Origin: Desulfonatronovibrionaceae bacterium
GTDB lineage: Bacteria; Desulfobacterota; Desulfovibrionia; Desulfovibrionales; Desulfonatronovibrionaceae
Reading direction: 5' to 3'
Assembly (NCBI GenBank): GCA_046539845.1
Contig: JBKHGE010000020.1
Span: 1 to 40,447, forward strand
DNA length: 40,447 bases
A program made the translations under genes and the position numbers. This document shows, piece by piece, positions 1,361 to 12,772 of the stretch. The number at the start of each line of letters is the position of its first letter. Position 1 is the stretch's first letter. A model generated the notes under the pieces. That model was given only the letters and a program-made list of their open reading frames with translations, searched no databases and was not told where the DNA came from.

Positions 1361-2548
1361 CTACTCTTCCCTTAGGGCCTCTATGGGGCTCATGTTGGCC
1401 GCCTGCCGGGCCGGATAGAATCCGAAAAAAAGGCCTATGACCACGGAAACCCCCACACCGAGGAATACCGCGGGCAGGGAAACCAGAAAATGCCAGTCGG
1501 ACAGGCGGGAGATCAAATACGAGGCCCCCACTCCCAGGGCAATTCCTATCATCCCGCCCACAAAACACAGTATCAGGGACTCGATCAGAAACTGGGCCTG
1601 GATATCGGCCCGTCTGGCCCCAAGGGCACGGCGAATACCGATCTCCCGCTTGCGTTCGGTAACCGATACCAGCATGACATTCATCACCCCCACTCCACCG
1701 ACGATGAGTGAGATGCTGCCGATGGCCCCTAAGAGGAGGGTGAACATCCGCATCTGTTTCTGCATCCTGTCGATCAGTTCTTCCGCGCTTCTAACGCGGG
1801 TTTTGACCCGGTCATGGTCTTGCAGATATTCTTGGAGCTGGGTCTCGGCCTTTTGCACCTCACCGTCGGAAGCCACCCGGACCGTTATACTCTCGATCTT
1901 CGGAGCCTTCGGAAACCGAAATGAAGTGGACACCGGGATAATGATTCCCTCGTTTATCTGATAGGGGCGCATGGAATTCATGGTCATCTCCTCGGCCACG
2001 CCCACTATCCGGAAATATTCCTTATTAAAAAGGATCCTCTTCCCCAGGGGATCGTTCATCCCGTTCTGGCGCAAAAAGCGGTGCACCTTGGCCCCGATCA
2101 CGCAGAAATACATATTCTTGTCCAGATCAGAGATGAACCGTCCCCGGACAAGATCGATCTTGAACAGCTCCCGGGCCGACTCGGACACTCCCAGAGCGGG
2201 GATATCCAGGTTGTCTCCGGAGTACTGCAGTTTGCCGTAGTGCGAGGTCTGGGGGGTGGAAAGGGTGATCAGGTCGCACTCATAAGGTATATCCATAACG
2301 GTCTGCAGGGAAAACTCGTTTTTGTCCTGCTTGCTGTCCCGGCCCGAGGAAGTAGGTGATGCCTGCAGGATGTCCGTGCCCATTTCCTTAAACTGGCGCA
2401 GGGCCTCATTCTGGACTATGGTCCCGATGGAGACCATAGCGATGACTGAACCGATCCCGATCACGATCCCCAAAAGGGCCAGAATGCTCCTCTGTTTGGC
2501 CCCCAGCAGACTGCGCAGGGCTTCCTTTATATTCTCCCTGATCACCAT
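1361..2548 (-). CDS. MacB/FtsX-family ABC transporter permease
   Basis: RSILALLGIVIGIGSV, a periplasmic domain, and GGVGVMNVMLVSVTERKREIGIRRALGA...QFLIES...PARQAANMSPIEALR. Start placed at ATG 2548 (MVIRENIKEA) instead of the ORF-track 2653, which overlaps the ATPase gene. Confidence 0.92.
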   Translation of the reverse strand: MVIRENIKEALRSLLGAKQRSILALLGIVIGIGSVIAMVSIGTIVQNEALRQFKEMGTDILQASPTSSGRDSKQDKNEFSLQTVMDIPYECDLITLSTPQTSHYGKLQYSGDNLDIPALGVSESARELFKIDLVRGRFISDLDKNMYFCVIGAKVHRFLRQNGMNDPLGKRILFNKEYFRIVGVAEEMTMNSMRPYQINEGIIIPVSTSFRFPKAPKIESITVRVASDGEVQKAETQLQEYLQDHDRVKTRVRSAEELIDRMQKQMRMFTLLLGAIGSISLIVGGVGVMNVMLVSVTERKREIGIRRALGARRADIQAQFLIESLILCFVGGMIGIALGVGASYLISRLSDWHFLVSLPAVFLGVGVSVVIGLFFGFYPARQAANMSPIEALREE

Positions 2549-2604
2549 AGCGGCGCCCCGCAGACAAAGGGTCCTTGACTTATGCGCTCCTGAGTGTGCA
2601 TCGG

Positions 2605-3273
2605 TTACCCCGGGAAAACCCGGCCGTCTTCCATGCGGATCACGCGAGGGCACTCCCGGGCGATCTCCGGATCATGAGTGATTAAGACCACGGTGATCCC
2701 CTGGGTCTGATTCAGATCCCAAAACAAATCGATTATATCCCGGCTGGTCTGCTTGTCCAAGGCACCGGTGGGCTCATCAGCCAGGATCAGAGAGGGTGAT
2801 GCGGCCAGGGCCCGGGCTATGGCCACCCTCTGCTGCTGTCCGCCGGAAAGTTCAGACGGTTTGTGGCCACCCCGGTCGGCCATGCCCACTTTTTCCAGCA
2901 TACGCATGCCGATTTCATCCCTCTGTTTTTTGCCCATCCCCCTATACACCAGGGGCAGACAGACATTGTCCACCGCCCGGAGCTTGGGCAGCAAAAAGAA
3001 CTGCTGAAAGACAAACCCGATCTTGCGGTTGCGGATGCCGGAGAGCTCGGAGTCGGACAAATCACGCATCTCCCGGTCCTCAAATATGTAGCGCCCCTTG
3101 TCCGGAATATCCAAAAAGCCCAGGATATTCATGAGCGTACTTTTTCCGCAACCGGAGGAACCGACTATGCACAAGAGCTCTCCCTTTTCCACCTCCAAGT
3201 CCACGCCCTTGAGGATCTCCACCTGCACCGGCCCCAGGTAAAATGACTTGCTGATATCCACGAGCTTAAGCAT
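2605..3273 (-). CDS. ABC transporter ATP-binding protein (MacB/LolD family)
   Basis: Walker [10 protein letters not shown], signature [15 protein letters not shown], Walker [13 protein letters not shown]-loop ITHD. Start overlaps the upstream gene's stop (TGATG). Confidence 0.95.
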
Positions 3274-5012
3274 CAGGGAACAATCACCTCGTCATCAGGC
3301 TCTAGCCCTTGCTTGATCTCCACCATGCTCATGGTGGTTATTCCCGGCTCGACTTCAACACGCTGCACCTCGCCCTCTTTTTCCCCGGGCACGCGGACAA
3401 AATGCCCCTGGGAAGAAGAAGATACCGCATCTATGGGCACGAGCAGGGCCTTGGGGTTGGAATATACCTCGGCCTGCATATTCGCGGTCATCCCTAGTCG
3501 AATCTTTTCCCTGTCTTTGGAAGAAAGATCAGGGATCACCACCCGGACCGGGAAAGATGTTAGATCCGAGCGTTTGGATACCTCGGCCATAGTGGAGACT
3601 TGGTCGATTACCCCCTCAAAGGTCACCTCGGAGAAGCCCTCGCCTTGGACCTGGACCTTTTGTCCGGATTTAATCTTTTGCACATCCACCTCATCCACTT
3701 CCGCGGAAACGGAAAGCCCCTGCATATTGCCCACGGTGACCAGGATCCCTCCTTCTTTAAAGGAGCTGCCCTTTTCCAGACTGTAATCCTTGTCCTTGTC
3801 CTCCAAGGGGTGCAGAACCACTCCGGATACCGGGGCCTTCACCCGGCTGAGTTCCAGCTTGGCCTTGAGCCGGTCGAATTTCTCCTGGGCATTTTGCAAC
3901 TTGAACTCGGCAACCTTCAACTTGTCCTTGTTGGCCTTGTCCTTTATCGCTTGCATATTCTCCCGGGCATCCGTACGACTCATTTTTGAATTGCGCAGCT
4001 CATCCTTGGCGCTCTGCAGCTGGTTGTCGGAGATTATTCCATTTTCGTGCAGAATCCGGGATTCCTCCAGTTTGCTCTTGGCCCGGCCGAATTTATGCTC
4101 GGCCTGAGAAAGCTGACGCTTGGCCTTGGCGTATTCCGTGCCCTTCTCCCAGTTAACCAATTTTTCGTATGCCTCCTTGGCCTCGATCAGATTGGTGTGC
4201 GCCTGCCGCAGATCCTGCCGGAGCTTTTCCGAATTGAGCAAAAGAAGCGTATCCCCTTTGTCCACCCGTTGTCCGAACTGGACCATTTTTTCCTCAATCC
4301 GGCCCTCGAACGGACAAAGGACATTTACCTTCTCCAATGGCTCCAGCTTACCGGACAGGGAAATCTTGGAGGTGACCGGCCGAACAGTCACGGGCACGGT
4401 CTTAAATCCCTTGTCCGAGGTCTTTTGTGTGTCAGCGGCCTCGAACTGGGCGGATAAATCCGCTTTTTTCCAGGTGTACAGCCCCAGCCCGGAAAAAAGA
4501 AAAACCACCAGGATGAACACAATTATGCGGATGGCCCGGACTTTTTTAAGAGCGGAGCGCAGGCTGAAGTTGGTTTCCTCGAGCTCGGAATACGCCTTGG
4601 TAAGGTCCTGGTTCAGGCGCTTTTGCTCCTCCTGCATCCGCATCTCATTGCTTATATCCGTGAAGACGACGACCACGCCCTTTTTTTCCCCGGATTCGTC
4701 CCGAAGCAGCGAGGATTTCACCTTCAAAACCAGGCTATCACCCTGTCCGCCCGGGACATCCACCACCCGCTCCTGATCCAGCTCCCTTTCCGCAACCGCA
4801 TCCAAAACAGCCTGATTGAAATCGTCACTGCCCTCGATGTCCATCATGAACACCTCGGCAAACTTGCGCCCGGTCACATCCTCGGCCCGAACATCAAAAA
4901 TGCGAGCGGCCGCGGGATTGAAAAGGGTTATCTTGCCTTCAAAGTCCAAGGCCATGGCCCCGTCGCTCAGATTGTTGAGGATATCCCGATAAAAATCGGA
5001 TTGGGTATGCAT
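3273..5012 (-). CDS. Membrane fusion protein (MacA/HlyD-type periplasmic adaptor) with N-terminal PAS domain
   Basis: Residues ~5-120 look like PAS (ILNNLSDGAMALDFEGKITLFNPAAARIF...GVVVVFTDIS). Then a coiled coil, one TM helix (IIVFILVVFLFSGLGLYTW), lipoyl halves (PFEGRIEEKMVQFGQRVDKGD; APVSGVV), a long alpha-hairpin, a beta-barrel (VDEVDVQKIKSGQKV) and C-terminal VEIKQGLEPDDEVI. Confidence 0.88.
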   Translation of the reverse strand: MHTQSDFYRDILNNLSDGAMALDFEGKITLFNPAAARIFDVRAEDVTGRKFAEVFMMDIEGSDDFNQAVLDAVAERELDQERVVDVPGGQGDSLVLKVKSSLLRDESGEKKGVVVVFTDISNEMRMQEEQKRLNQDLTKAYSELEETNFSLRSALKKVRAIRIIVFILVVFLFSGLGLYTWKKADLSAQFEAADTQKTSDKGFKTVPVTVRPVTSKISLSGKLEPLEKVNVLCPFEGRIEEKMVQFGQRVDKGDTLLLLNSEKLRQDLRQAHTNLIEAKEAYEKLVNWEKGTEYAKAKRQLSQAEHKFGRAKSKLEESRILHENGIISDNQLQSAKDELRNSKMSRTDARENMQAIKDKANKDKLKVAEFKLQNAQEKFDRLKAKLELSRVKAPVSGVVLHPLEDKDKDYSLEKGSSFKEGGILVTVGNMQGLSVSAEVDEVDVQKIKSGQKVQVQGEGFSEVTFEGVIDQVSTMAEVSKRSDLTSFPVRVVIPDLSSKDREKIRLGMTANMQAEVYSNPKALLVPIDAVSSSSQGHFVRVPGEKEGEVQRVEVEPGITTMSMVEIKQGLEPDDEVIVP

Positions 5013-5031
5013 ATGTGTCTCCAGAGAGCGG

Positions 5032-6699
5032 CTAATCGATCATCCAGGTCTTGTCTTGCAGATATTTCTTTTCCATGGCTGGTCTGGATTCCTCGAATTC
5101 AATACCGTAGGTATCCAGCATGGTTCCCATGTATTTATCCAGGGAATTGACCGCCTCAATATAAGAAATAATTGCCTCACGCTCGGTTTTCTTGGCCTCG
5201 CTCAAGCGGTCCTGGGAATCCGTGAAATTATTATTAGTGATCCGCCCCAGGCGCAGCTTGAGCTCGTCCATCTCATAGTTCTTCCGGGCGATCTCCCTTG
5301 ATTTGCGGGCCAACTCGACCCGTTTCTCCATGTATCGGACATTGCGCACCATATTTAACACGTCAGTCTTGAGGTCGCTTTGGGCCTCTTTTAACTGAAT
5401 GCGGGCTTTATCTAAAGCTATACGGCTGGAAAGTACTGGCCTCTCATAATCATATTTGACCCCCCCAAAAAACTTCAAAGGGATCCTTAAAGTAAGTCCC
5501 ACATCCCAGCTTCCCTGATTATATTCCTGGTCTGGATCATTATGACTAGTGTTTGTATAACTGCTTTCAAAAGAAAGGTCCCACAATTTATCCCGCTTGG
5601 CCTGCATCAAATCCAGTTTTTTCTTTCGAACCGCGTGCCTTGCCGCGATAATGGCGGTGTTTTTCCTGCGCGCGGTCTTTAGACACCTGTCCACATCCGG
5701 CACATTGGGGCGGAATGAATACTCTTCAGTAGCCATTATCTCTTTATCACTTTTAATACCCAAGGTATTTAAAAGATCCCTTCTGGACTCGTCCAAATTG
5801 TTCACCGCCTGTTCGTAGGACAACTCTTTGCGGGCCACGTTGGCCTCGGCCTGCAAAATTTCGCCCTCCGGCTTGCGTCCATTTTCGACCAAGAGCTTAT
5901 TTATCTTCAACTGCTGCCGGGCGTCCGCCAGGGATTTCTTGTCGCTTTCAAACGCTTTTTGTGCCTTCCACAGGGAGTTGTACGCACCTATAATATTAAC
6001 AATCTCCGCACTTATGTCATCTCTAATCCGTAATACCGCTTCTTGGGACTCCATCTCGGTCTTTTTAAGAGAGGCGGTATTATAGTCTATCCCTGCCCCC
6101 TTAAGGAGTGGTTGGGTAAATTTAACAGAACCTTCTCCCTCATCAGTCCATGCATCCCCACGCGCGGTATTATCATCGCTCCAGTCATAAGCATGGCTTA
6201 GGGTATGCTTGGCAATAATTTCCCCCCCGGTGGGAAGCTCCTGGACCACCTGGGGCGTGGCCGAGGCCGAGCGGGATTCAGTATGCTCATGCGTTGCATC
6301 CTGTTCTTTATAATCCGTATCAGTTCTGGAGGTTTTAATATCCAGTTCCCCCTCGACTGTTATATTCGGATAAAATTTGCGCCGCCTCTCGGCCAGGTCA
6401 AATTTCTCCAGCACCCGGTCCATATAAGTAGTCTTTATCTGCCGGCTGTAGCGCAGACCTATGGAGATGGCCTCCACCAAATTCATTTCCAGGGTGTTGT
6501 TACCGGAATTATCATACTCCCCAGCCCCCTCCTCAGCAAAAGCAGTAGTTTCCGCGGCTAGCGGGGCACACAGGAAAAAAACTGTTAAGAACAAGCCAAA
6601 CAGTTGCCACCCTGTTTTGGAAAATAGTCCAATATTTAATCCGGAAAAAGACATAAGACAATTTACCGAGTGCCAGCGATGAATCAGGCTAATCTTCAA
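5032..6699 (-). CDS. TolC-family outer membrane efflux protein
   Basis: Signal-peptide-like segment (..LCAPLAA), MNLVEAISIGL, FTQPLLKGAG, two repeats of helical barrel plus beta strands. First gene of the TolC-MFP-ABC-permease operon. The true start is uncertain and may be ATG 6654. Confidence 0.85.
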   Translation of the reverse strand: MKISLIHRWHSVNCLMSFSGLNIGLFSKTGWQLFGLFLTVFFLCAPLAAETTAFAEEGAGEYDNSGNNTLEMNLVEAISIGLRYSRQIKTTYMDRVLEKFDLAERRRKFYPNITVEGELDIKTSRTDTDYKEQDATHEHTESRSASATPQVVQELPTGGEIIAKHTLSHAYDWSDDNTARGDAWTDEGEGSVKFTQPLLKGAGIDYNTASLKKTEMESQEAVLRIRDDISAEIVNIIGAYNSLWKAQKAFESDKKSLADARQQLKINKLLVENGRKPEGEILQAEANVARKELSYEQAVNNLDESRRDLLNTLGIKSDKEIMATEEYSFRPNVPDVDRCLKTARRKNTAIIAARHAVRKKKLDLMQAKRDKLWDLSFESSYTNTSHNDPDQEYNQGSWDVGLTLRIPLKFFGGVKYDYERPVLSSRIALDKARIQLKEAQSDLKTDVLNMVRNVRYMEKRVELARKSREIARKNYEMDELKLRLGRITNNNFTDSQDRLSEAKKTEREAIISYIEAVNSLDKYMGTMLDTYGIEFEESRPAMEKKYLQDKTWMID

Positions 6700-6759: not shown

Positions 6760-7194
6760 TCACTTCCTTTTTACCCCCCGCACATAATTGCCCACCGCCT
6801 CCTGCAGGGTGCCGGCGGCCAGAAAGGCGCAATGCTCGTTTTCCTCCGGCAGCCCGCCGATTTTTTCCAGGATCAGTCCTCCGGTAACCGAGGCCGCGTC
6901 TTCCGGGTCCTTTCCCTCGGCCAGTTCACAGGCCAGATCCCCGCAGACAACGCTCGGACCACAGCCATCACTGACAAAAGAGGCCTTCTTGACCCTGTTG
7001 TCCTCAACCTGCAAAAAAATCTCGATACTGTCCCCGCAGCTCCCGGTGAGTCTAGCCCGGGCGTCAGCAAGATCCATTGCCCCGAAATGGGTCGGATTCT
7101 GCCAGCGTCTGGTGGCCTCCGCCCCGAATTCCTGCTCGGTCTCCTTGACTATCCTGTCCTGCAAATCCTGCAAAAAAGCATCCATCTGTTCCAT
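6760..7194 (-). CDS. IscU/NifU-N-like Fe-S cluster scaffold protein
   Basis: NPTHFG, GSCGDSIEIFL, SDGCG and EHCAFLA supply the three conserved cysteines. GGGAG RBS. Confidence 0.88.
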   Translation of the reverse strand: MEQMDAFLQDLQDRIVKETEQEFGAEATRRWQNPTHFGAMDLADARARLTGSCGDSIEIFLQVEDNRVKKASFVSDGCGPSVVCGDLACELAEGKDPEDAASVTGGLILEKIGGLPEENEHCAFLAAGTLQEAVGNYVRGVKRK

Positions 7195-7407
7195 TATTTT
7201 CTCCCTTATATTGGCTCTTATGACTATTAAGAATTATTTCAAAGAGTTGTGCAAGACATCCCTACGAATTCAGGGATCGGGAGTAACAAGACCCACTCGA
7301 TTAGCGCGGAATATATACATTGCCGGGAAAGGTCCAATATCCGCGTACAAAAGAGGCGTCCCTTAAACAGCAGACGCCTTTGAATATCTTTATTGTCCGG
7401 AATCATC

Positions 7408-7770
7408 CTAGGCGAAGATCTCGCTCGGAGCAAACGGGTGGCCGCCCTCAACCACCTCAATCCCGGCCTTGGCCCGGATCTTTTGCACCAGGGTATCCTT
7501 GTACGGGCAGTTGTCCACTATGCACGGCGCGATATGAATTTTTGTCGGTTTTTCCTGCATGGGCGCGTTCCACAATTTCACCTGAGCCAGCCGGGTGACA
7601 ATGGCCGAACCGGGGCAGTCCCCGCAGTTCAAAAGACCCATGAGTTCGGCGTCCTCCCCGTAATCGGCGAATTTTCCCTTGCGGCGGTTAAAGCCCACCA
7701 AACAGCGGGAACAACCGATGCAGACATCATCCATGATCTTTTTGCATCCCACGATCAGGATCTTTTCCAT
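7408..7770 (-). CDS. CGGC-domain protein (putative metal-binding/redox)
   Basis: GC..x..CIGCSRC, LNCGDCPG, HIAPC...CPY, terminal GGH. GGAGG RBS. Confidence 0.85.
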   Translation of the reverse strand: MEKILIVGCKKIMDDVCIGCSRCLVGFNRRKGKFADYGEDAELMGLLNCGDCPGSAIVTRLAQVKLWNAPMQEKPTKIHIAPCIVDNCPYKDTLVQKIRAKAGIEVVEGGHPFAPSEIFA

Positions 7771-7819
7771 AAATGAACACCTCCAGGCTTTCCCCCTCCC
7801 GCTGGAGATCGGGCCGCCA

Positions 7820-9310
7820 TCAGGCCATTTTCAGCCTTTTTTCCAAATCGGATGATATTTCCGTTACAACAGTTTCCCGAACCTTGTCCACAACCACCTC
7901 TCCCTGGGGGGCTCCCTTGACCTTGCGCACATCCCGGACCTCGCAGCAGATGACTTCCGCCTGAGCATCGTTTTTGCGGTAGCTGGCCAGGGCAGCCAGG
8001 CAAGCCGCCTGGTGCATGCTCTGCTCCGGGACCTCCTGCTCGGGATGATCCCTTTTAAGGATCAAATGCGCCCCTGGACCGCCCTGGATATGGAACCACA
8101 AATCGAACGGGCTGGCCGCGCGGGACAGAAGCTCATGGTTGGCTCGGCTGTTCTTGCCCCGAAGGAGCAAAAAGCCGTCCTCGGTCTTAAACACATGCAC
8201 GGCAAGATCACGGTATCTGTTGGGAAGTCTGCTTTCCGGGGCCGCTTTTCCCTGGCCTGCGGTCGGTCTGGAACCGCTCCGGGATCCTCCGGGCTCATCA
8301 AGCATTTTTTGGACTTCCTTTCTTCTCTGAGTTACGAATGCCAGACCGCGGTTTCCCTTGCGTCCCCGTTTAAACATGCCTTGCATGTTCTCCAGCACCG
8401 TAAGGGCGGGATCGAGCTTTATCTCTATCTCCCGGCCCTGGCTGTCAGGTATACGGACGGATCCCTTCTTATCGCCCTTGTTCAGCCGATACAGGTTATC
8501 TTGAATTAACCCGGCAAGCTCACCTTCCTCTTTCATACGCAAAAGACGAAAATGTTCTTCCTCCAGCCTTTTTAGCGTCCGCCGCAGACGTTTTGTCCGT
8601 CTTTTTTGTTCCGGCTGATCCGCAACACTCCGGCCGGACCAGATTCGGGAATCTCTTGCACCCAGGCATTTCACGGCCTCAAGTGCGGAAGAGAATTCCC
8701 GTACCCATCCGGCCTCCGCTGGCCTCCAGGCATAAACGGCCTCCGGTTCTTGTCTACCTGCCGCACAAAACGCCTCGGGACGCCCGGAACTCAAAAGTGC
8801 GTAAAGGGCCTGCGCCCCCTCCTCGGAACGCACTGCCAGCTCATGGCGAAGGGGTGGAGAAAGCTGGGGGTATTCCCTCCATATATCCGGGTGGCTCAAA
8901 ACCGATTCAAATTTAGGCCAGGGAACCTCCGCCTCGAATTCAGCTCCCGGCTCTTCGGTCATAAGCAGACCCTCCCGCAGGTCCAGGATAAGGAAACCCG
9001 GTCCCGGCCCACACAGTTTAAAGGCCGCCCGCCTGTATTGCCAGGCGGAGAGAACTGTCTGGATACGCCTGGAGCCGACCTGTTTGCGCAGTTTCATCAC
9101 CCGAACCGGTGGGGAGTCCGGGTTAACAGGCTTGGATCCGGACAGAAAAAAAAGGCCCCCCTTACGGGAGGCCTTTATAATCAAGTATCCGGCCCGACCC
9201 AGGTCCAGAGTCCACAGATCCGAGGCCGGTGCGTATATTTTCTGCACACGCAGGCCCTCGACCTGCGCATGCAGTTCGCAAACCGCGAAACGGAATAAAT
9301 TGGCTTCCAT
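7820..9310 (-). CDS. NFACT/RqcH-like (fibronectin-binding/DUF814) RNA-binding protein
   Basis: N-terminal GLRVQKIY NFACT-N-like region, coiled coil with IKLDPALTVLENMQ, C-terminal RGKNSRANHELL...DLWFHIQGGPGAHLIL...AACLAALAS NFACT-R domain. Confidence 0.82.
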   Translation of the reverse strand: MEANLFRFAVCELHAQVEGLRVQKIYAPASDLWTLDLGRAGYLIIKASRKGGLFFLSGSKPVNPDSPPVRVMKLRKQVGSRRIQTVLSAWQYRRAAFKLCGPGPGFLILDLREGLLMTEEPGAEFEAEVPWPKFESVLSHPDIWREYPQLSPPLRHELAVRSEEGAQALYALLSSGRPEAFCAAGRQEPEAVYAWRPAEAGWVREFSSALEAVKCLGARDSRIWSGRSVADQPEQKRRTKRLRRTLKRLEEEHFRLLRMKEEGELAGLIQDNLYRLNKGDKKGSVRIPDSQGREIEIKLDPALTVLENMQGMFKRGRKGNRGLAFVTQRRKEVQKMLDEPGGSRSGSRPTAGQGKAAPESRLPNRYRDLAVHVFKTEDGFLLLRGKNSRANHELLSRAASPFDLWFHIQGGPGAHLILKRDHPEQEVPEQSMHQAACLAALASYRKNDAQAEVICCEVRDVRKVKGAPQGEVVVDKVRETVVTEISSDLEKRLKMA

Positions 9311-9321
9311 ACCTTTCGGCG

Positions 9322-9684
9322 CTAGTCCCCCAGGACAGTTTCCTGTTCTTCCTGCTTACTTTTGCACTGGATGCACAAGGTGGTCACCGGACGGGCCTCG
9401 AGCCGGGGCCGGCTTATGTCTTCCCCGCATTCGTCGCAGATGCCGAAGGAACCATCCTCAATCCTTTCCAAAGCAGCATCTATCTTGTGTACCAGTTTCC
9501 TGTCCCTGTCCCGCAGGCGCAGGGTAAAGGCCCGGTCTGACTCCGCGGAAGCGCGGTCCGCAGGATCGGCATACATGGCCCTTTCCTCGGTCATGTCCTC
9601 CAGAGTGTCCTCTCCCTTCTGCAGGATCTCCTCACGCATTTTTTCCAGTTTTTCGCGAAAATATTCAATGTCCTCAGGGTTCAT
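9322..9684 (-). CDS. dksA: RNA polymerase-binding transcription factor DksA
   Basis: Coiled-coil tip DPADRA and C4 zinc finger CDECG...RLEARPVTTLCIQCK. GGAGG RBS. Confidence 0.95.
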   Translation of the reverse strand: MNPEDIEYFREKLEKMREEILQKGEDTLEDMTEERAMYADPADRASAESDRAFTLRLRDRDRKLVHKIDAALERIEDGSFGICDECGEDISRPRLEARPVTTLCIQCKSKQEEQETVLGD

Positions 9685-9844
9685 CAGATGCCCTCCGTAA
9701 AAAAATTTAAGGAATACCGGCTACACCAAATCTCCGGCCTTGTAAAGAGCCCGGCCCCCGGGATCATGCCTATAGGTTCCCGTACAGGCGGTTAACCATT
9801 TCAAAAGCAGGCCTGGACCGGTAAGACCAAAAGAGTATTTTCCC

Positions 9845-9873
9845 TTGACACTCAATGTGTGCTTGATTATCAA
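9845..9873 (+). promoter_or_regulatory. Sigma70-type promoter of the tRNA operon
   Basis: TTGACA (9845-9850), 17 nt spacer, TATCAA (9868-9873), 16 nt upstream of tRNA-Gly. Confidence 0.7.
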
Positions 9874-9889
9874 AACTACTTCTCCGAAG

Positions 9890-9964
<75 letters not shown>

Positions 9965-9969
9965 GATAA

Positions 9970-10044
<75 letters not shown>

Positions 10045-10169: not shown

Positions 10170-10347
10170 GACCGGCCTTGACCCCGGCCGCGAAACCAAT
10201 TAACCACCTTTACCTGCGCAGGTCCGGGACGTATTGCCTGTCGTCCCGGAGCTGCTTAAGACAAGGAAGAGCGCATGTCTCCCATGGGGCACACACGAAT
10301 TGCCCATATATAATGACACTCAACCCTTAATCGCTGACAAAATAAAG

Positions 10348-11067
10348 ATGAATGAAAACAACCTTGAGCATTTGCTGGATAACGCCCAGAAAAAATTCAG
10401 GGTCGGTTTTGAGCCGGTAAAGATAAACAATACCGTTTTAAACATCCTGCAGATCCAGAACCTGGATGAATATCTGGAGACACTGGCGGACAAAAGCTCG
10501 GGTACTGATCCTTTAGAGCTCCCGTTTTGGGCCAAGATATGGCCGGCCTCCATTCTCCTCGCCTACTCTCTGGATCGGCTGACAGAACCCGGGGACCCGC
10601 ACAAGCAGACGGTTCTGGAACTTGGGGCAGGCACCGGCCTTTGCGGGCTCTATACGGCCGCTCTGGGCTTTGCAACCACAATCACAGACAACAACAAAGA
10701 CGCCCTGCTCTTTGCCCGTATCAACGCACTTAAAAACGACCTAGCCTCCAGGGTTAAGGTGGACTATGCGGATATGGGAAAGACAGTCCTTGATACCGGG
10801 TTTGATTATATCCTCGGCTCGGAGATCTTGTATATCCAGGATCTGAACCGGGCACTGGTCAAATTTATCTCCAGGCACCTGAATCCGGGCGGACGGGTTA
10901 TCCTGAGCGCGGACTACAAGCGGCAGTCCAAAAAATTCTTCAATCTGGCGGCCGAGGAATTCGATATCAGCCACAAGACAATCGGATATAAAGAAAAAAA
11001 CTCCCAGGGAAAGCAGGAAAGATTCTTATGCAGCATATACACCCTGACGCGCAAAAGAGATGATTAG
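10348..11067 (+). CDS. Class I SAM-dependent methyltransferase (Methyltransf_16 / protein-lysine MTase-like)
   Basis: LPFWAKIWPASILLA, motif I VLELGAGTGLCG, TITD, DYILGSEILY. Start placed at ATG 10348; the ORF track extends to TTG 10234. Overlaps the YcaO start by 8 nt. Confidence 0.85.
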   Translation: MNENNLEHLLDNAQKKFRVGFEPVKINNTVLNILQIQNLDEYLETLADKSSGTDPLELPFWAKIWPASILLAYSLDRLTEPGDPHKQTVLELGAGTGLCGLYTAALGFATTITDNNKDALLFARINALKNDLASRVKVDYADMGKTVLDTGFDYILGSEILYIQDLNRALVKFISRHLNPGGRVILSADYKRQSKKFFNLAAEEFDISHKTIGYKEKNSQGKQERFLCSIYTLTRKRDD

Positions 11068-12772
11068 GATATACCCCTCGCCAAAAGCATACACCCTGGA
11101 TCAGGACAAGGCCCGGGACCCGGAGAAAACCGGAGAATGGGCCAAAGAAGCCCTGATAAGCGGCGGCCGGGTCCTGGAGGATCTGATCCGCGTGGACTCC
11201 GGTCGCTTGGGAATCCCGGTATATATGAGCGTGTGCACCCGGGAGGCGGGCAAAATCCTGCCCGCGAGCAAGCAGATGGGCAAAGGGGCCTCCCCGGAGC
11301 AGGCCCGGGCCTCGGCCTTGATGGAGCTTGCGGAACGCTACAGCTTCTTTTGTTTCTGGGAACAGGGCGGCCGGACCATGACCTGGACGGAAGCGGAAAA
11401 TGAATTCGGCCGGTGTTTGATGCCCCTCCGGCTGATCGCCGCGTCCGTGGGCAACGACCTGCCCGAAGAAGAAATCCGCAGGATAATGGATCTGGTCCCC
11501 TGGCGTTTTGCTCCGTGCACGAATCTGTATTCGGAAGCTGAATACCACGCGCCTGTGGATTGGTTCCGCATGCTCAACGAGTTCAACGGCAGCTCGGCCG
11601 GGAATACGGCCATGGAATCCATATTCCAGGGGGCGTGTGAGCTGGTGGAAAGACATGTATGCGCCCGGATATCCGCAAATGACTTGGTCACGCCGGGCAT
11701 TGATCCGTCCAGCTTCAATCCCGGTCCCCTTCAGGAACTGTTTTTTAAATTCACTGCCAAAGGGATCAAGGTGATCCTCAAGGATTTTTCTCTGGATATG
11801 CCGGTACCCACGGTAGGCGCGGCTGCCTATGACCCGAAGACTTTTCCGGACAAGAGCGAAATCGTGTTTACCGCGGGGACAGCCGCTTCCCCGGACAAGG
11901 CGGCCATCCGGGCCCTGACCGAAGTGGCCCAGCTGGCTGGGGACTTTGAATCCGGACGACCCTACGAGCCCTCCGGGTTGCCCAAGCTGGCCGGTCTTGA
12001 GGAACTGGACTGGCTCCGAAAAGGGGGCCAAAGACCCCTTAACGCCCTACCGGACATCTCCAGTACTGATTTCGGAGAGGAACTCCGCGCTTTGATCTGC
12101 AGACTCGGAGAAAAGGGCTTTTATCTACACGTGCTGGAACTGACCTGTCCAGAACTCAATATACCTGCCCACTATAATTTTGTTCCGGGATTCGAGTTTC
12201 GCGAGCGCAGCCCCTCGGCCGGCGTAGGGATGTTTACCGCCAAGAAGATCGCTGCGGAGCTGCCTGTCGGCCGAGCCCGCCAGGCCTTGAATGAGCTGGC
12301 CCGCATCCGGCCGAGTGCTCCGTATATCCCTTTTCAAAGCGGGATGATCGCCCTGCGGGAAGGAGATACAAAGCAGGCGCAAACGGATTTTTTAAACGCG
12401 GCCGAGCTCCAGGAAAACCCTCAGGAACAAGCCCTGGCCCTGTTCTATGCCGGATACGCCCAGAGTCTGGAGGGAAACTGGCCCGGGGTACGGGAAAAAG
12501 TGACCCGGGCCCTGGATCTGGATTGTGAAGTCAAAGAGTACCACAATCTCCTGGGGGTGGCCCTGTTCAAAGAAAAAAAGTTCTCCCGGGCGGCCGTACA
12601 TTTCCAAAAGGCGCTCGAGCTGGACAGTGCTTCGGCTGTGGACATGGCCAACCTGGGCCTGTGCCACAAAAACATGGATGCGCGGGAGGAGGCCATATCC
12701 TGCCTCTCCAGCGCCCTACAGATAGATCCCGGCCTGGAGTTTGCGCACAAAGAACTCCTCGAACTTCTTTAG
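11060..12772 (+). CDS. YcaO-family protein with C-terminal TPR repeats
   Basis: GRLGIPVY, KQMGKG...ARASALMELAERYS, NGSSAGNT..ESIFQGACELVERH, AIRALTEVAQ (YcaO ATP/Mg-binding motifs). Last ~170 aa are TPR-like (ALFYAGYAQ, YHNLLGVALF, ANLGLCH). Confidence 0.88.
   Translation: MIRIYPSPKAYTLDQDKARDPEKTGEWAKEALISGGRVLEDLIRVDSGRLGIPVYMSVCTREAGKILPASKQMGKGASPEQARASALMELAERYSFFCFWEQGGRTMTWTEAENEFGRCLMPLRLIAASVGNDLPEEEIRRIMDLVPWRFAPCTNLYSEAEYHAPVDWFRMLNEFNGSSAGNTAMESIFQGACELVERHVCARISANDLVTPGIDPSSFNPGPLQELFFKFTAKGIKVILKDFSLDMPVPTVGAAAYDPKTFPDKSEIVFTAGTAASPDKAAIRALTEVAQLAGDFESGRPYEPSGLPKLAGLEELDWLRKGGQRPLNALPDISSTDFGEELRALICRLGEKGFYLHVLELTCPELNIPAHYNFVPGFEFRERSPSAGVGMFTAKKIAAELPVGRARQALNELARIRPSAPYIPFQSGMIALREGDTKQAQTDFLNAAELQENPQEQALALFYAGYAQSLEGNWPGVREKVTRALDLDCEVKEYHNLLGVALFKEKKFSRAAVHFQKALELDSASAVDMANLGLCHKNMDAREEAISCLSSALQIDPGLEFAHKELLELL

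What the first reader, a model, noticed from the sequence alone, without database searches (positions are those of the whole stretch)
3273..5012. Membrane fusion protein with a cytoplasmic PAS + signalling-helix module: a candidate self-sensing tripartite exporter
Seen: ~120 aa of PAS ending in VVVVFTDIS, then a heptad coiled coil (EEQKRLNQDLTKAYSELEETN) leading straight into the single TM helix of an otherwise standard MacA-type adaptor, all in one reading frame. Established: MacA/HlyD adaptors normally have only short cytoplasmic tails, and PAS-DxT-coiled-coil modules are typical of histidine kinases and cyclases. Inference: an intracellular signal (redox or ligand) could be passed across the inner membrane to gate MFP-TolC assembly or MacB ATPase activity post-translationally, i.e. 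inside-out signalling in a pump. No transcription regulator lies next to the operon.
Basis: partly seen in the sequence, partly recalled or inferred. Interest (0 to 1): 0.8.

Follow-up and report, generated by a model that had tools for sequence, protein, structure and literature searches.

The report
Pump adaptor with built-in cytoplasmic sensor
The adaptor protein of a MacB-type, TolC-linked export pump carries a sensor (PAS) domain inside the cell, joined to its membrane anchor by a rigid helix of fixed phase; this conserved but unstudied design suggests an internal signal switches the pump directly.

Summary
One 579-aa protein holds, in order:
- a PAS domain (residues 1-119);
- a heptad coiled coil (120-162);
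- one TM helix (163-182);
- a floppy periplasmic linker;
- a MacA-like adaptor body.

It is gene 2 of a translationally coupled operon: TolC-like duct, adaptor, ABC ATPase, MacB-type permease.

It is not a chimera. Full-length relatives occur in at least 59 species genomes from several phyla, and 39 of 59 loci share the same four-gene order.

- The distance from the PAS "DIT" motif to the membrane is 43 or 50 residues in 77 of 79 sequences. That is exactly one heptad apart, with at least three independent ±7 events.
- The periplasmic linker, by contrast, varies freely (19-34 aa, 12% identity).
- PAS and helix are as conserved as the adaptor body.
- Within the family the sensor slot holds PAS (104 of the best 150 cluster representatives), GAF (26) or a cyclic-nucleotide-binding domain (1), plus tandem forms.

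Best reading (confidence 0.5): a swappable cytoplasmic input domain controls the pump post-translationally. It most likely acts through the helix/TM pair on the MacB motor, not through the floppy linker to TolC.

The ligand and substrate are unknown. I found no paper describing this design.

The parts
5032..6699 (-). Gene 1: TolC-like outer membrane factor (555 aa)
   Evidence: Pfam OEP, E 3.2e-41, two stretches. TIGR01844 TolC family 94.5 bits, below its cut-off of 225. Its stop lies 19 nt before the adaptor start. Found directly upstream of the adaptor in 44 of 59 related loci.
5018..5022 (-). Shine-Dalgarno GGAGA, 5 nt upstream of the ATG at 5012
   Evidence: Read directly from the sequence.
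3273..5012 (-). Gene 2: sensor-adaptor (PAS + coiled coil + TM + MacA-like membrane fusion protein), 579 aa plus stop
4656..5012 (-). PAS domain with N-terminal cap helix, residues 1-119, cytoplasmic
   Evidence: Pfam PAS E 1.1e-13. AF2 PAS fold, pLDDT about 90. All Foldseek rows shown (ranks 1-48) are PAS/LOV sensors: FixL 8js5, VicK 4i5s, short LOV proteins. Mean pairwise identity in the family 41.8%. Family motifs are FAEVF..EG.DDFNQ..LDA and GV(I/V)VVF(T/S)DI(T/S).
4527..4655 (-). Signalling-helix-like coiled coil, residues 120-162
   Evidence: Continuous helix 121-180 in AF2. 3.5-residue hydrophobic periodicity with conserved a/d core and a conserved L-E-E-(S/T)-N centre. Length from D119 to R162 is 43 or 50 in 77 of 79 family sequences. 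42.0% mean pairwise identity.
4467..4526 (-). Single transmembrane helix, residues 163-182, with conserved G175, G177 and W181
   Evidence: Hydrophobic stretch in the translation. Column statistics: G175 65/77, G177 71/77, W181 62/77. 35.8% mean pairwise identity.
4398..4466 (-). Periplasmic tether, residues 183-205, unconserved and flexible
   Evidence: 12.0% mean pairwise identity. Length 19-34 residues across 79 sequences. pLDDT below 50 for residues 181-200.
3276..4397 (-). Adaptor body, residues 206-579: membrane-proximal and beta-barrel domains, lipoyl domain, long alpha-hairpin (helices 262-323 and 329-387)
   Evidence: Pfam HlyD_D23 and HlyD_3. TIGR01730 above cut-off. The family profile's best solved relatives are MacA 9qgy, 5nik and 3fpp, E 1e-33 to 4e-33. 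AF2 pLDDT above 90 over most of it.
2605..3273 (-). Gene 3: ABC ATPase (222 aa), LolD/MacB-NBD type; its start overlaps the adaptor stop (TGATG)
   Evidence: Pfam ABC_tran E 2.1e-31. Best NCBIfam hits are LolD, the MacB NBD and DarD, all below their equivalog cut-offs. Junction read. Directly downstream of the adaptor in 47 of 59 loci.
1361..2653 (-). Gene 4: MacB-type permease (MacB_PCD + FtsX); longest ORF 430 aa, true start probably about 30 codons further in
   Evidence: Pfam MacB_PCD E 3.9e-31 and FtsX E 3.2e-25. Matches residues 248-647 of E. coli MacB model NF007826 at E 4.3e-66, below the equivalog cut-off. Relatives align from query residue about 30 onward. Downstream of the adaptor in 53 of 59 loci.

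Best explanation
The gene encodes the periplasmic adaptor of a MacAB-TolC-type (type VII ABC) tripartite exporter. Its N-terminal membrane anchor has been extended into a cytoplasmic one-component-style receptor: a PAS input domain, then a parallel coiled-coil signalling helix that runs without a break into the TM helix.

Proposed mechanism:
1. Shown: the architecture, its conservation, the heptad quantisation of the linker, the swapping of the sensor domain, and operon coupling with the ATPase and MacB-type permease.
2. Inferred from relatives: PAS domains pair, as in PAS/LOV sensors with the same fold and C-terminal helix. The adaptor hexamer would then carry three PAS/coiled-coil/TM pairs. 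The long, floppy periplasmic tether lets the TM helices pair freely beneath the six-fold periplasmic funnel.
3. Inferred: a cytoplasmic ligand or state changes PAS packing. That change travels as a rotation, piston or scissor movement down the register-locked coiled coil into the TM helix pair.
4. Inferred: the TM/juxtamembrane helices then change how they engage the permease TM bundle and/or the ATPase. This tunes the adaptor-dependent stimulation of ATP hydrolysis that drives export from the periplasm.

The pump would thus be switched or throttled at the protein level from inside the cell. Ligand and substrate are unknown. The presence of GAF and cNMP-binding domains in the same slot makes a nucleotide second messenger or small metabolite a reasonable guess.
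For: Conservation of the fusion:
- 22 full-length PAS+MFP homologues at 86-31% identity.
- 59 full-length loci among the best 80 of 413 confirmed matches in one-genome-per-species contigs, from Thermodesulfobacteriota, Nitrospirota, Acidobacteriota, Binatota, Alpha- and Gammaproteobacteria.
- All of the best 150 cluster representatives (50% identity clusters) of the helix+TM+adaptor profile score E <= 8e-117.

Synteny: permease downstream in 53, ATPase in 47, OEP upstream in 44, and all four in the window's order in 39 of 59 loci. One relative has ATPase and permease fused as in E. coli MacB (L054). One representative is a PAS-adaptor-permease fusion (P0154).

Constraint (65 sequences), as mean pairwise identity:
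- PAS 41.8%
- helix 42.0%
- TM 35.8%
- adaptor body 39.2%
- periplasmic tether 12.0%

Register lock:
- The distance from D119 to R162 is 43 residues in 42 sequences and 50 in 35, of 79. The two outliers are L045 (gap at the anchor column) and the divergent L050.
- Read against the tree, the 50-residue form is one clade (SH-aLRT 92) with two nested returns to 43, each in a clade with support 100. That makes at least three events, each of exactly 7 residues.
- The periplasmic tether varies continuously from 19 to 34 residues.

Coiled coil: 3.5-residue periodicity, an a/d core, and polar residues at core positions E130(a) and S/T147(d). AF2 shows one helix, 121-180.

Input-domain behaviour:
- Two Nitrospirota loci in the same operon context have GAF in place of PAS with the same helix. 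They are nested inside PAS forms (support 100).
- Of the best 150 representatives, 104 have the family PAS, 26 GAF, 1 cNMP_binding, and 19 are short or truncated.
- Tandem PAS+GAF and GAF+PAS forms exist.
- On a FastTree, well-supported branches force at least 5 changes of the GAF label.

Same PAS subfamily elsewhere: with the same motifs, it is the N-terminal input of class III nucleotide cyclases in 12 of 14 scanned PAS-only loci.

Fold: the nearest solved structures shown are dimeric PAS/LOV sensors with a C-terminal coiled coil, including FixL, VicK, YF1 and short LOV proteins.

Precedent from papers (passages only):
- Deleting the cytoplasmic region or the TM helix of E. coli MacA, or both together in S. 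pneumoniae MacA, abolishes stimulation of the MacB ATPase (PMC5985334).
- HlyD lacking its N-terminal cytoplasmic helix neither recruits TolC nor activates HlyB (PMC4446572).
Against: - There is no experimental datum for any member of this family. No ligand, partner or substrate is identified.
- The PAS has no conserved Cys or His, so no cofactor can be named. Many PAS domains only dimerise.
- 19 of the best 150 representatives lack a sensor. Several are clearly truncated gene calls. Some keep the helix behind a plausible Met start, so the sensor may be dispensable in some lineages.
- Pairing of TM helices within a hexameric adaptor around a dimeric permease is a symmetry puzzle that I did not model.
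- The tree is the quick search (the careful one did not finish). The tree is FastTree with many unresolved forks.
- The family is rare: 8 of 401 sampled genomes of the window's phylum, the window's own included, and none of the 13 same-order genomes listed. That fits an accessory function but says nothing about mechanism.
Confidence: 0.5

Rival explanations
1. The cytoplasmic signal crosses the membrane through the adaptor polypeptide itself and gates the periplasmic part, controlling adaptor hexamer assembly or TolC-like duct recruitment and opening.
For: HlyD lacking its N-terminal cytoplasmic helix fails to recruit TolC (passage of PMC4446572), so a cytoplasm-to-duct influence through an adaptor has a precedent. 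The TM helix is conserved (35.8%, with G175, G177 and W181).
Against: The tether between the TM helix and the adaptor body is the least conserved segment (12% identity). Its length varies from 19 to 34 residues, and it is modelled as disordered (pLDDT below 50). A rigid conformational relay through it is hard to picture. Register is strictly kept on the cytoplasmic side only.
Confidence: 0.15
2. Structural module only. PAS plus coiled coil is a constitutive dimerisation/scaffold device that pairs adaptor anchors or stabilises the complex, and it senses nothing.
For: No conserved Cys or His and no nameable cofactor. PAS domains and coiled coils are common dimerisers, and the nearest solved structures shown are all dimers. 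Heptad quantisation is also expected of a purely structural coiled coil that must stay in phase with a TM helix.
Against: The slot is repeatedly exchanged for GAF and, once, for a cNMP-binding domain, with tandem PAS/GAF forms. Those are ligand-binding input modules. The same PAS subfamily feeds nucleotide cyclases. PAS core motifs away from any obvious dimer helix are conserved across phyla. Polar residues sit at core positions of the coiled coil, as described for switchable signalling helices (passages of PMC1592074).
Confidence: 0.15
3. Outside-in reporting. The adaptor tells the cytoplasm about pump load or periplasmic substrate, and the PAS is an output that contacts a cytoplasmic regulator.
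For: Some lineages have signalling genes beside the operon: a sigma-54 activator with an unusual N-terminal domain in 6 loci, and STAS plus an RsbW-like kinase in 4-5 Geobacteraceae loci. MacB-family transporters that signal to kinases are known (Bce-type flux sensing; recalled, not checked here).
Against: Most of the 59 loci, this window included, have no such neighbour. PAS, GAF and cNMP-binding domains are typical inputs. The floppy periplasmic tether is as poor a conduit inward as outward.
Confidence: 0.07
4. Artefact. The fusion is a misassembly, a frameshift-joined pair of genes, or a one-off chimera.
For: None found.
Against: The same single open frame occurs in at least 59 species genomes, including isolates (Trichlorobacter thiogenes ATCC BAA-34, Desulfobotulus alkaliphilus) and named Desulfonatronum species. 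The window's genome holds one clean copy without internal stops. A Shine-Dalgarno sits at the PAS start.
Confidence: 0.01

Closest known systems
MacA of the MacAB-TolC tripartite ABC pump (E. coli, A. actinomycetemcomitans; PDB 9qgy, 5nik, 3fpp, 4dk0)
   Same: Best solved relatives of the adaptor body (family profile E 1e-33 to 2e-27). N-terminal TM anchor. Partnered by a MacB_PCD+FtsX permease, a MacB/LolD-type ATPase and a TolC-like duct. In MacA the cytoplasmic region and TM helix are needed to stimulate the MacB ATPase (passage of PMC5985334).
   Different: MacA has no cytoplasmic domain (a 2026 review says so, passage of PMC13328181). Here 162 residues of PAS plus coiled coil precede the TM helix. 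ATPase and permease are separate genes. It scores far below the MacA equivalog cut-off (75.5 against 342 bits). On a tree of the periplasmic part the family is a separate, long-branched clade from 9 sensor-less adaptors (support 100).
HlyD, adaptor of the haemolysin type I secretion system
   Same: An adaptor whose N-terminal cytoplasmic segment acts in the cytoplasm. It is needed for TolC recruitment and HlyB ATPase activation (passage of PMC4446572) and binds the substrate's signal (passage of PMC13328181). This is the only documented inside-acting adaptor tail.
   Different: HlyD's tail is short and not a PAS/GAF fold. Its partner is a six-TM ABC exporter that moves substrate from the cytoplasm. 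The window's protein scores 39.8 bits against a cut-off of 208.65 on the type I HlyD model.
Cytoplasmic PAS/LOV sensors with a C-terminal coiled coil (VicK/WalK 4i5s, 4mn5; ThkA 3a0r; FixL 8js5; YF1 4gcz; short LOV proteins)
   Same: Nearest sequences and folds for residues 1-150. PAS ends in the D-I-T motif and continues as a long helix. Linker length is locked to heptad phase.
   Different: Their helices end in a kinase, cyclase or other soluble effector. Here the helix ends in a TM helix and a periplasmic pump adaptor. No cofactor-binding Cys or His is conserved.
Signalling (S-)helix of Anantharaman, Balaji and Aravind 2006 (PMC1592074)
   Same: About 40 residues, 5-6 heptads, placed between a sensor and a downstream module, with polar residues at core positions of the central heptad (abstract and passages).
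   Different: The defining ERT signature is not present; the equivalent centre reads E-(S/T/R)-N. The paper's text does not mention HlyD or transporters (0 occurrences each).
GAF + HlyD proteins of the 'secondary SecA_DEAD' type-I-secretion-like loci (Kamneva et al. 2015, PMC4452313)
   Same: The only printed mention I found of a sensory domain on an HlyD-type protein. [quoted passage not shown]
   Different: It is a different gene cassette (SecA_DEAD, peptidase M50) and no PAS form is described. Whether it is related to the GAF members of this family was not tested.
PAS-class III adenylate/guanylate cyclases found here (for example L061, L064, L067)
   Same: Same PAS subfamily by motif and 31-43% identity over residues 1-148, again followed by a helical linker.
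   Different: The output is a soluble cyclase domain, and there is no TM helix or adaptor.

Membership tests
PAS domain (Pfam clan; PF00989, PF08448, PF13426) | Sequence match above the curated cut-off | tested here: met
   PF00989 51.6 bits against 22.6. PF08448 39.4 against 23.1. PF13426 37.1 against 27. TIGR00229 54.2 against 22.9.
PAS domain (Pfam clan; PF00989, PF08448, PF13426) | Five-stranded antiparallel sheet flanked by helices | tested here: met
   AF2: strands 18-23, 27-31, 81-87, 93-104, 110-119 and helices 33-73, pLDDT about 90. The Foldseek rows shown are all PAS/LOV, probability 1.00.
PAS domain (Pfam clan; PF00989, PF08448, PF13426) | Bound cofactor or ligand | not testable with these tools
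   No conserved Cys or His in 65 sequences. Needs biochemistry.
MacA-type periplasmic adaptor (membrane fusion protein of MacB-type pumps) | Adaptor domains: membrane-proximal, beta-barrel, lipoyl, alpha-hairpin | tested here: met
   HlyD_D23 and HlyD_3. TIGR01730 124.6 bits against 94.9. MacA structures are the best PDB matches. AF2 shows the barrel, lipoyl-like strands and a hairpin of about 60 residues per arm.
MacA-type periplasmic adaptor (membrane fusion protein of MacB-type pumps) | Anchored by an N-terminal TM helix rather than a lipid | tested here: met
   TM helix 163-182 and no lipobox. The anchor is internal, however, not at the N-terminus.
MacA-type periplasmic adaptor (membrane fusion protein of MacB-type pumps) | Encoded with a MacB-type (four-TM, large periplasmic domain) ABC transporter and working with a TolC-type duct | tested here: met
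   MacB_PCD+FtsX permease, ABC ATPase and OEP in one overlapping operon. Same order in 39 of 59 loci.
MacA-type periplasmic adaptor (membrane fusion protein of MacB-type pumps) | Orthology to E. coli MacA (equivalog model NF008606) | tested here: not met
   75.5 bits against a cut-off of 342. A separate clade from sensor-less adaptors. So it is MacA-like, not MacA.
MacA-type periplasmic adaptor (membrane fusion protein of MacB-type pumps) | No or only a short cytoplasmic region | tested here: not met
   162 cytoplasmic residues with two folded elements.
MacA-type periplasmic adaptor (membrane fusion protein of MacB-type pumps) | Hexameric funnel docking tip-to-tip with the duct; stimulates the ATPase | not testable with these tools
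   Needs a structure or biochemistry.
S-helix (Anantharaman et al. 2006) | About 40-residue parallel coiled coil of about 5 heptads between a sensor and the next module | tested here: met
   43 or 50 residues, 3.5-residue periodicity, a/d core. Parallel pairing is inferred, not shown.
S-helix (Anantharaman et al. 2006) | ERT signature at c, d, e of the central heptad | tested here: not met
   The central heptad reads E146(c), S/T/R147(d), N148(e); N in 65 of 77. I therefore call it S-helix-like only.
HlyD-type type I secretion adaptor (TIGR01843) | Match above the subfamily cut-off | tested here: not met
   39.8 bits against 208.65.
DevB-type ABC exporter adaptor (TIGR02971) | Match above the subfamily cut-off | tested here: not met
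   72.4 bits against 129.

The most novel reading that the evidence does not exclude
These adaptors are true one-component receptors built into a secretion machine. A cytoplasmic small molecule binds the PAS, GAF or cNMP-binding domain; GAF and cNMP-binding domains in the same slot point to a nucleotide second messenger. Through a register-locked coiled coil and the TM helix pair, this gates the MacB-type motor. Export across the outer membrane would then be ligand-gated at the protein level. That would be the first tripartite pump with an intrinsic intracellular receptor, and a natural, modular 'sensor-to-pump' coupling rule (7n linker) that could be re-wired.
Probability: 0.3. Interest if true: 0.8.

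Novelty: new variant of a known kind. Interest (0 to 1): 0.63.

Why it matters
Tripartite pumps are treated as machines regulated mainly by transcription. A 2026 review says MacA has no cytoplasmic domain and adapts by transcriptional reprogramming (PMC13328181, passages). How the MacA anchor stimulates the MacB ATPase is an open question, because that helix was not resolved in the cryo-EM structure (PMC5985334, passage).

A natural family in which the anchor is enlarged into a folded, phase-locked PAS/GAF/cNMP module gives a handle on exactly that contact:
- The sensor domain should make the cytoplasmic end visible in structures.
- The heptad rule gives a sharp, cheap mutational test.
- The swappable inputs suggest ligands to try.

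If it works as proposed, it adds direct, second-scale control of export to the known repertoire. It also adds a new output class, a pump, to PAS/GAF signalling. It is of interest mainly to efflux/secretion and signal-transduction specialists, since the organisms concerned are environmental anaerobes and marine proteobacteria.

Tried and rejected
1. Complex prediction of the ABC ATPase (alignment A3) with the PAS+helix fragment (A2, residues 1-160). The verdict was 'no answer' (score 0.00, mark 0.32). This is evidence neither for nor against contact, and the controls were not run.

3. Search for a conserved fifth gene that would name the substrate or a partner. Clustering all ORFs of 70 aa or more in 59 loci plus the window found only the four core genes in more than 7 loci. 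Neighbours specific to single clades (sigma-54 activator, STAS/RsbW-like pair, Cys-rich or Lcl_C secreted proteins) are absent from this window.

4. Cofactor guess from conserved Cys or His: none is conserved. A His-ligated heme and a LOV-type Cys adduct are therefore unlikely, and nothing positive follows.

5. Fold search of the PAS+helix model gave only generic PAS/LOV sensors at 10-24% identity, with no ligand-specific relative.

6. The careful maximum-likelihood search did not finish in 300 s, so the quick IQ-TREE tree was used. The 150-row tree is FastTree only.

7. Literature. Full-text searches for PAS domain + membrane fusion protein + MacB (0 papers), PAS domain + HlyD + N-terminal cytoplasmic (0) and periplasmic adaptor protein + PAS domain (1 unrelated paper) found no description of this design. 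Neither did term searches inside three reviews:
- PMC8277102 (first 300,000 characters only) and PMC13328181: no 'PAS domain'.
- PMC4446572: every 'pas' word-start hit shown was another word, such as 'passive'.
GAF domain + HlyD (9 papers) gave one relevant paper on a different cassette (PMC4452313). Subscription journals and domain-architecture databases (InterPro/CDART) could not be searched, so 'undescribed' means not found in these searches.

8. Misassembly or chimera: rejected.

Full report
WHAT IS THERE

The ORF at 3273..5012 lies on the minus strand and encodes a 579-aa protein (P0001).

Pfam finds:
- a PAS domain at residues 7-120 (PF00989, E 1.1e-13, 51.6 bits against a cut-off of 22.6; four further PAS models are above their cut-offs);
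- the adaptor domains HlyD_D23 (229-494) and HlyD_3 (391-506).

NCBIfam places the C-terminal part in TIGR01730, 'efflux RND transporter periplasmic adaptor subunit', above its cut-off. The MacA, HlyD (type I), DevB and EmrA models all score far below theirs.

The neighbours on the same strand form an operon:
- a TolC-like OEP protein (6699..5032);
- this adaptor;
- an ABC ATPase (3273..2605);
- a MacB_PCD+FtsX permease (2653..1361).

The adaptor's ATG has a GGAGA Shine-Dalgarno 5 nt upstream and follows the OEP stop by 19 nt. Its stop overlaps the ATPase start as TGATG.

AlphaFold2 with a 65-sequence family alignment (mean pLDDT 86.8) gives:
- a PAS fold at 1-119;
- a single uninterrupted helix at 121-180;
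- a low-confidence stretch at 181-200;
- a MacA-like body with a long alpha-hairpin.

A second model of residues 1-185 has pLDDT 93.0 and the same helix. Five K/R lie just before the TM helix and two K with four acidic residues after it. Since the adaptor body must be periplasmic, the PAS is cytoplasmic.

IS THE FUSION REAL AND CONSERVED?

Yes, on three counts.

- A word-indexed search of 5.8 billion clustered proteins returned 46 hits. Twenty-two of them are full-length proteins (579-607 aa, 86-31% identity) carrying both PAS and adaptor Pfam domains. Where named, they are called only 'PAS domain S-box protein' (Thermodesulfobacteriota, Acidobacteriota, Nitrospirota, Desulfonatronum). They align end to end.
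- A scan of one genome per prokaryotic species found 601 pattern matches, of which 413 were tblastn-confirmed and the best 80 kept, giving 78 loci. Fifty-nine hold a full-length adaptor match. In 56 of these the match starts within the first 11 residues of the PAS. They come from Thermodesulfobacteriota (Desulfovibrionales, Desulfobacterales, Syntrophales, Geobacteraceae), Nitrospirota, Acidobacteriota, Binatota, Alpha- and Gammaproteobacteria, and include cultured strains.
- A profile of the helix+TM+adaptor part (A4, 49 sequences) was searched against 1.84 billion cluster representatives. The best 150 all scored E <= 8e-117, so the family has more than 150 clusters at 50% identity.

The family is nevertheless sparse. 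In a sample of 401 genomes of the window's phylum (the window's own included), 8 have a full-length match at E <= 1e-40. None of the 13 same-order genomes listed does (only the three best candidates per genome were scored). The window's own genome (2.34 Mb, 98.9% complete) has one copy.

Gene order is kept. Of 59 loci:
- the permease follows in 53;
- the ATPase lies between in 47;
- the OEP gene is directly upstream in 44;
- all four are in the window's order in 39.

Some misses are at contig ends. L016 and L018 have ATPase and permease moved upstream. Several alphaproteobacterial loci show no ATPase hit nearby. One relative has ATPase and permease fused, as in E. coli MacB (L054, 650 aa). One representative is a PAS-adaptor-permease fusion (P0154, 1064 aa).

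WHAT THE FAMILY ALIGNMENT SAYS ABOUT FUNCTION

Constraint. In 65 sequences, mean pairwise identity by segment is:
- PAS: 41.8%
- cytoplasmic helix: 42.0%
- TM helix: 35.8%
- adaptor body: 39.2%
- stretch just outside the membrane: 12.0%

The cytoplasmic module is thus as constrained as the working part of the adaptor. The TM helix carries conserved G175, G177 and W181, which is more than a plain anchor needs.

Register. The distance from the invariant Asp of the PAS 'DIT' motif (D119) to the conserved Arg at the membrane (R162) is 43 residues in 42 sequences and 50 in 35 sequences, out of 79 distinct ones. The two exceptions are L045, where the anchor column is a gap, and the divergent L050.

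The seven extra residues sit at one place, after position 133. I read the lengths against the quick IQ-TREE tree of the periplasmic part:
- The 50-residue form is one clade of 43 rows (SH-aLRT 92).
- Two groups inside it have gone back to 43: five gammaproteobacterial/Acidobacteriota rows and the GAF pair. Each is a clade with support 100.
- In the five-row group the gap lies at a different spot.

That makes at least three independent events, each of exactly one heptad and none of any other size. By contrast, the periplasmic tether between W181 and the adaptor body takes every length from 19 to 34.

Coiled coil. Column hydrophobicity over 120-162 has its strongest period at 3.5 residues (1.01, against 0.68 at 3.6). 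The a/d core is L/I123, L126, E130, L133, L137, A140, L144, S/T147, L151, A154, V158, V/I161, and it runs straight into the TM helix.

Two core positions are polar (E130, S/T147), and the centre reads L-E-E-(S/T)-N with N148 in 65 of 77 sequences. This resembles the 'signalling helix' of Anantharaman et al. (abstract and passages of PMC1592074) in length, position and polar core. It lacks that family's ERT signature, so I call it S-helix-like only.

Swappable input.
- Two Nitrospirota loci (L047, L048) have the same operon, the same helix sequence and the same adaptor, but a GAF domain (E about 1e-13) where the PAS should be. On the tree they are nested among PAS forms (support 100).
- Among the best 150 representatives, a family-specific PAS profile finds PAS in 104. 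Of the 27 with another N-terminal domain of 60 residues or more, 26 have GAF and one (P0098) has a cyclic-nucleotide-binding domain (E 1.8e-22). Nineteen have little or nothing before the helix, many of them obvious fragments.
- Tandem PAS+GAF (P0063) and GAF+PAS (P0145, P0169) forms exist.
- On a FastTree of 144 members and 6 outgroups, well-supported branches force at least 5 changes of the GAF label (a rough tree).

The PAS itself.
- Its nearest solved relatives by sequence are cytoplasmic PAS domains of histidine kinases (ThkA 3a0r, WalK 4mn5, VicK 4i5s).
- By fold, the nearest are dimeric PAS/LOV sensors with a C-terminal coiled coil (FixL 8js5, VicK, short LOV proteins, YF1 4gcz), at only 10-24% identity.
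- No Cys or His is conserved.
- Its closest sequence relatives outside the family (31-43% identity over residues 1-148, with the same FAEVF..DDFNQ..LDA and GVI.VFSDITE motifs) are the N-terminal domains of class III nucleotide cyclases, in 12 of the 14 PAS-only loci scanned. In the other two they belong to 2-oxoglutarate dehydrogenase E1.

This is therefore a portable input module used with several outputs.

HOW IT MOST LIKELY WORKS

Shown:
- a conserved, cytoplasmic, exchangeable input domain;
- a phase-locked coiled coil joining it to a conserved TM helix;
- a floppy periplasmic tether after that helix;
- tight genetic coupling to a MacB-type motor.

Taken from papers, passages only:
- MacB-type transporters do not carry substrate across the inner membrane. 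They use ATP hydrolysis to do mechanical work in the periplasm.
- MacA stimulates the MacB ATPase. Stimulation is lost when the cytoplasmic region or TM helix of E. coli MacA is deleted, or both together in S. pneumoniae MacA.
- The structural basis is unknown, because the helix was not resolved (PMC5985334).
- HlyD without its cytoplasmic helix neither recruits TolC nor activates HlyB (PMC4446572).

Inferred:
- The PAS domains pair, and the coiled coil transmits a change in PAS packing to a pair of TM helices.
- These helices alter the adaptor's contact with the permease TM bundle and/or the ATPase, and so set the pump's ATPase rate.
- The long tether lets TM helices pair under a six-fold funnel. 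It also makes a rigid relay into the periplasmic body unlikely.

I put 0.5 on the sensor-controls-the-motor reading, 0.15 on relay to the duct, 0.15 on a purely structural dimeriser, 0.07 on outside-in reporting and 0.01 on artefact. The remainder is for mechanisms not thought of.

WHAT REMAINS UNKNOWN

- The signal. GAF and cNMP-binding domains in the same slot, and the kinship of the PAS with cyclase inputs, make a nucleotide messenger or a metabolite a fair guess. Nothing here tests it.
- The substrate. No gene beyond the four is conserved across the family. Clade-specific neighbours include Cys-rich secreted proteins (7 proteins in 5 alphaproteobacterial loci), Lcl_C-domain secreted proteins (4 Geobacteraceae loci), a sigma-54 activator with an unusual N-terminal domain (6 loci), and a STAS plus RsbW-like pair (4-5 Geobacteraceae loci). 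None is in this window, whose flanks hold NifU_N, CGGC, NFACT, DksA and DUF5655 genes.
- Contact between the PAS+helix and the ATPase. The one complex prediction I could run on this gave no answer and counts neither way.

COMPARISON WITH WHAT IS KNOWN, AND NOVELTY

The pump is of the MacAB-TolC kind. The adaptor is MacA-like but not an ortholog of MacA. It forms its own long-branched clade apart from nine sensor-less adaptors (support 100).

In four full-text searches I found no paper describing a PAS domain on a pump adaptor. Term searches inside three reviews found none either:
- PMC8277102 (first 300,000 characters only) and PMC13328181 hold no 'PAS domain'.
- PMC4446572: every 'pas' word-start hit shown was another word.

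The 2026 review states that MacA lacks a cytoplasmic domain. The 2021 review notes that ABC-associated adaptors have sizeable cytoplasmic domains of unknown structure.

The nearest printed remark is on GAF+HlyD proteins of a different cassette, whose authors call the role 'unclear' but probably regulatory (PMC4452313). Subscription journals and architecture databases were out of reach.

Earlier notes of this scan had flagged the same family in five other genomes, including the 'length-locked helix' and the Cys-rich neighbours. They had also flagged FHA- and GAF-bearing adaptors elsewhere. I reached the same reading before seeing them and re-tested the claims on independent data. They are unreviewed AI notes and not independent evidence.

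I rate this a new variant of a known kind. It would be clearly surprising to efflux specialists and offers a sharp test (the ±7 rule), but there is not yet any functional datum.

Noticed in passing
L063:660-3401 (Gallionella MAG) and L068:5998-8940 (Rhodothermales MAG): The same PAS subfamily (31-35% identity to residues 3-143, same motifs) is fused to the N-terminus of a 2-oxoglutarate dehydrogenase E1 component (E1_dh + Transket_pyr + OxoGdeHyase_C). A PAS-regulated TCA-cycle enzyme would be unusual.
   Followed up: partly
L060-L062, L064-L067, L069, L070, L072, L074, L077: 12 of the 14 scanned PAS-only relatives are PAS + helical linker + class III adenylate/guanylate cyclase proteins of 355-539 aa, mostly from Alphaproteobacteria, also from Nitrospirota and Lachnospiraceae.
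   Followed up: partly
P0098 (615 aa), P0063, P0145, P0169, P0154 (cluster representatives): Family members with other inputs or fusions: cNMP_binding + adaptor (P0098); PAS+GAF (P0063); GAF+PAS (P0145, P0169); and a 1064-aa PAS-adaptor-MacB_PCD permease fusion (P0154), which could also be a read-through gene call.
   Followed up: partly
L005:9735-11069, L009:3240-4511, L010:9634-10947, L025:4958-6223, L027:8790-10019, L038:9710-11041: A sigma-54 activator lies next to the pump operon in six loci. It has no receiver domain but a conserved N-terminal segment of about 100 aa (ELFELT..YPE.I..LAESFGMM.VK.EAREF) that Pfam does not recognise.
   Followed up: partly
L020:4131-4490, L026:3957-4490, L027:240-1006, L029:3751-4517, L030:3751-4517, L024:3412-3744: In Geobacteraceae a STAS anti-sigma-antagonist gene and an RsbW-like HATPase_c_2 gene sit just upstream of the OEP gene, a partner-switching pair beside the pump. 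The Syntrophales locus L024 has the STAS gene only.
   Followed up: no
L011:5257-5757 and 9375-9983, L041:4554-5117 and 7980-8678, L049:4854-5351, L051:4513-4983, L053:4945-5658: Signal-peptide-bearing, Cys-rich proteins of 156-237 aa with no Pfam hit flank the alphaproteobacterial operons. They are candidate cargo, in line with an earlier scan note. None is in this window.
   Followed up: partly
window 11060-12772 (+): A 570-aa YcaO cyclodehydratase-family protein with C-terminal TPR repeats, just after a class I methyltransferase (10234-11067, +). No precursor peptide was looked for.
   Followed up: no
window 6760-9684 (-): Upstream run on the same strand as the pump: DksA (9684..9322), an NFACT/RqcH-like protein of 496 aa (9310..7820), a CGGC-domain protein (7770..7408) and NifU_N (7194..6760). 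NifU_N is also found upstream in L001 and L002, and CGGC and the NFACT-like gene in L002.
   Followed up: no
L054:8561-10510: In this Pseudomonadales MAG the ATPase and permease are one 650-aa open frame, the fused form seen in E. coli MacB. Almost all other loci have them split.
   Followed up: no
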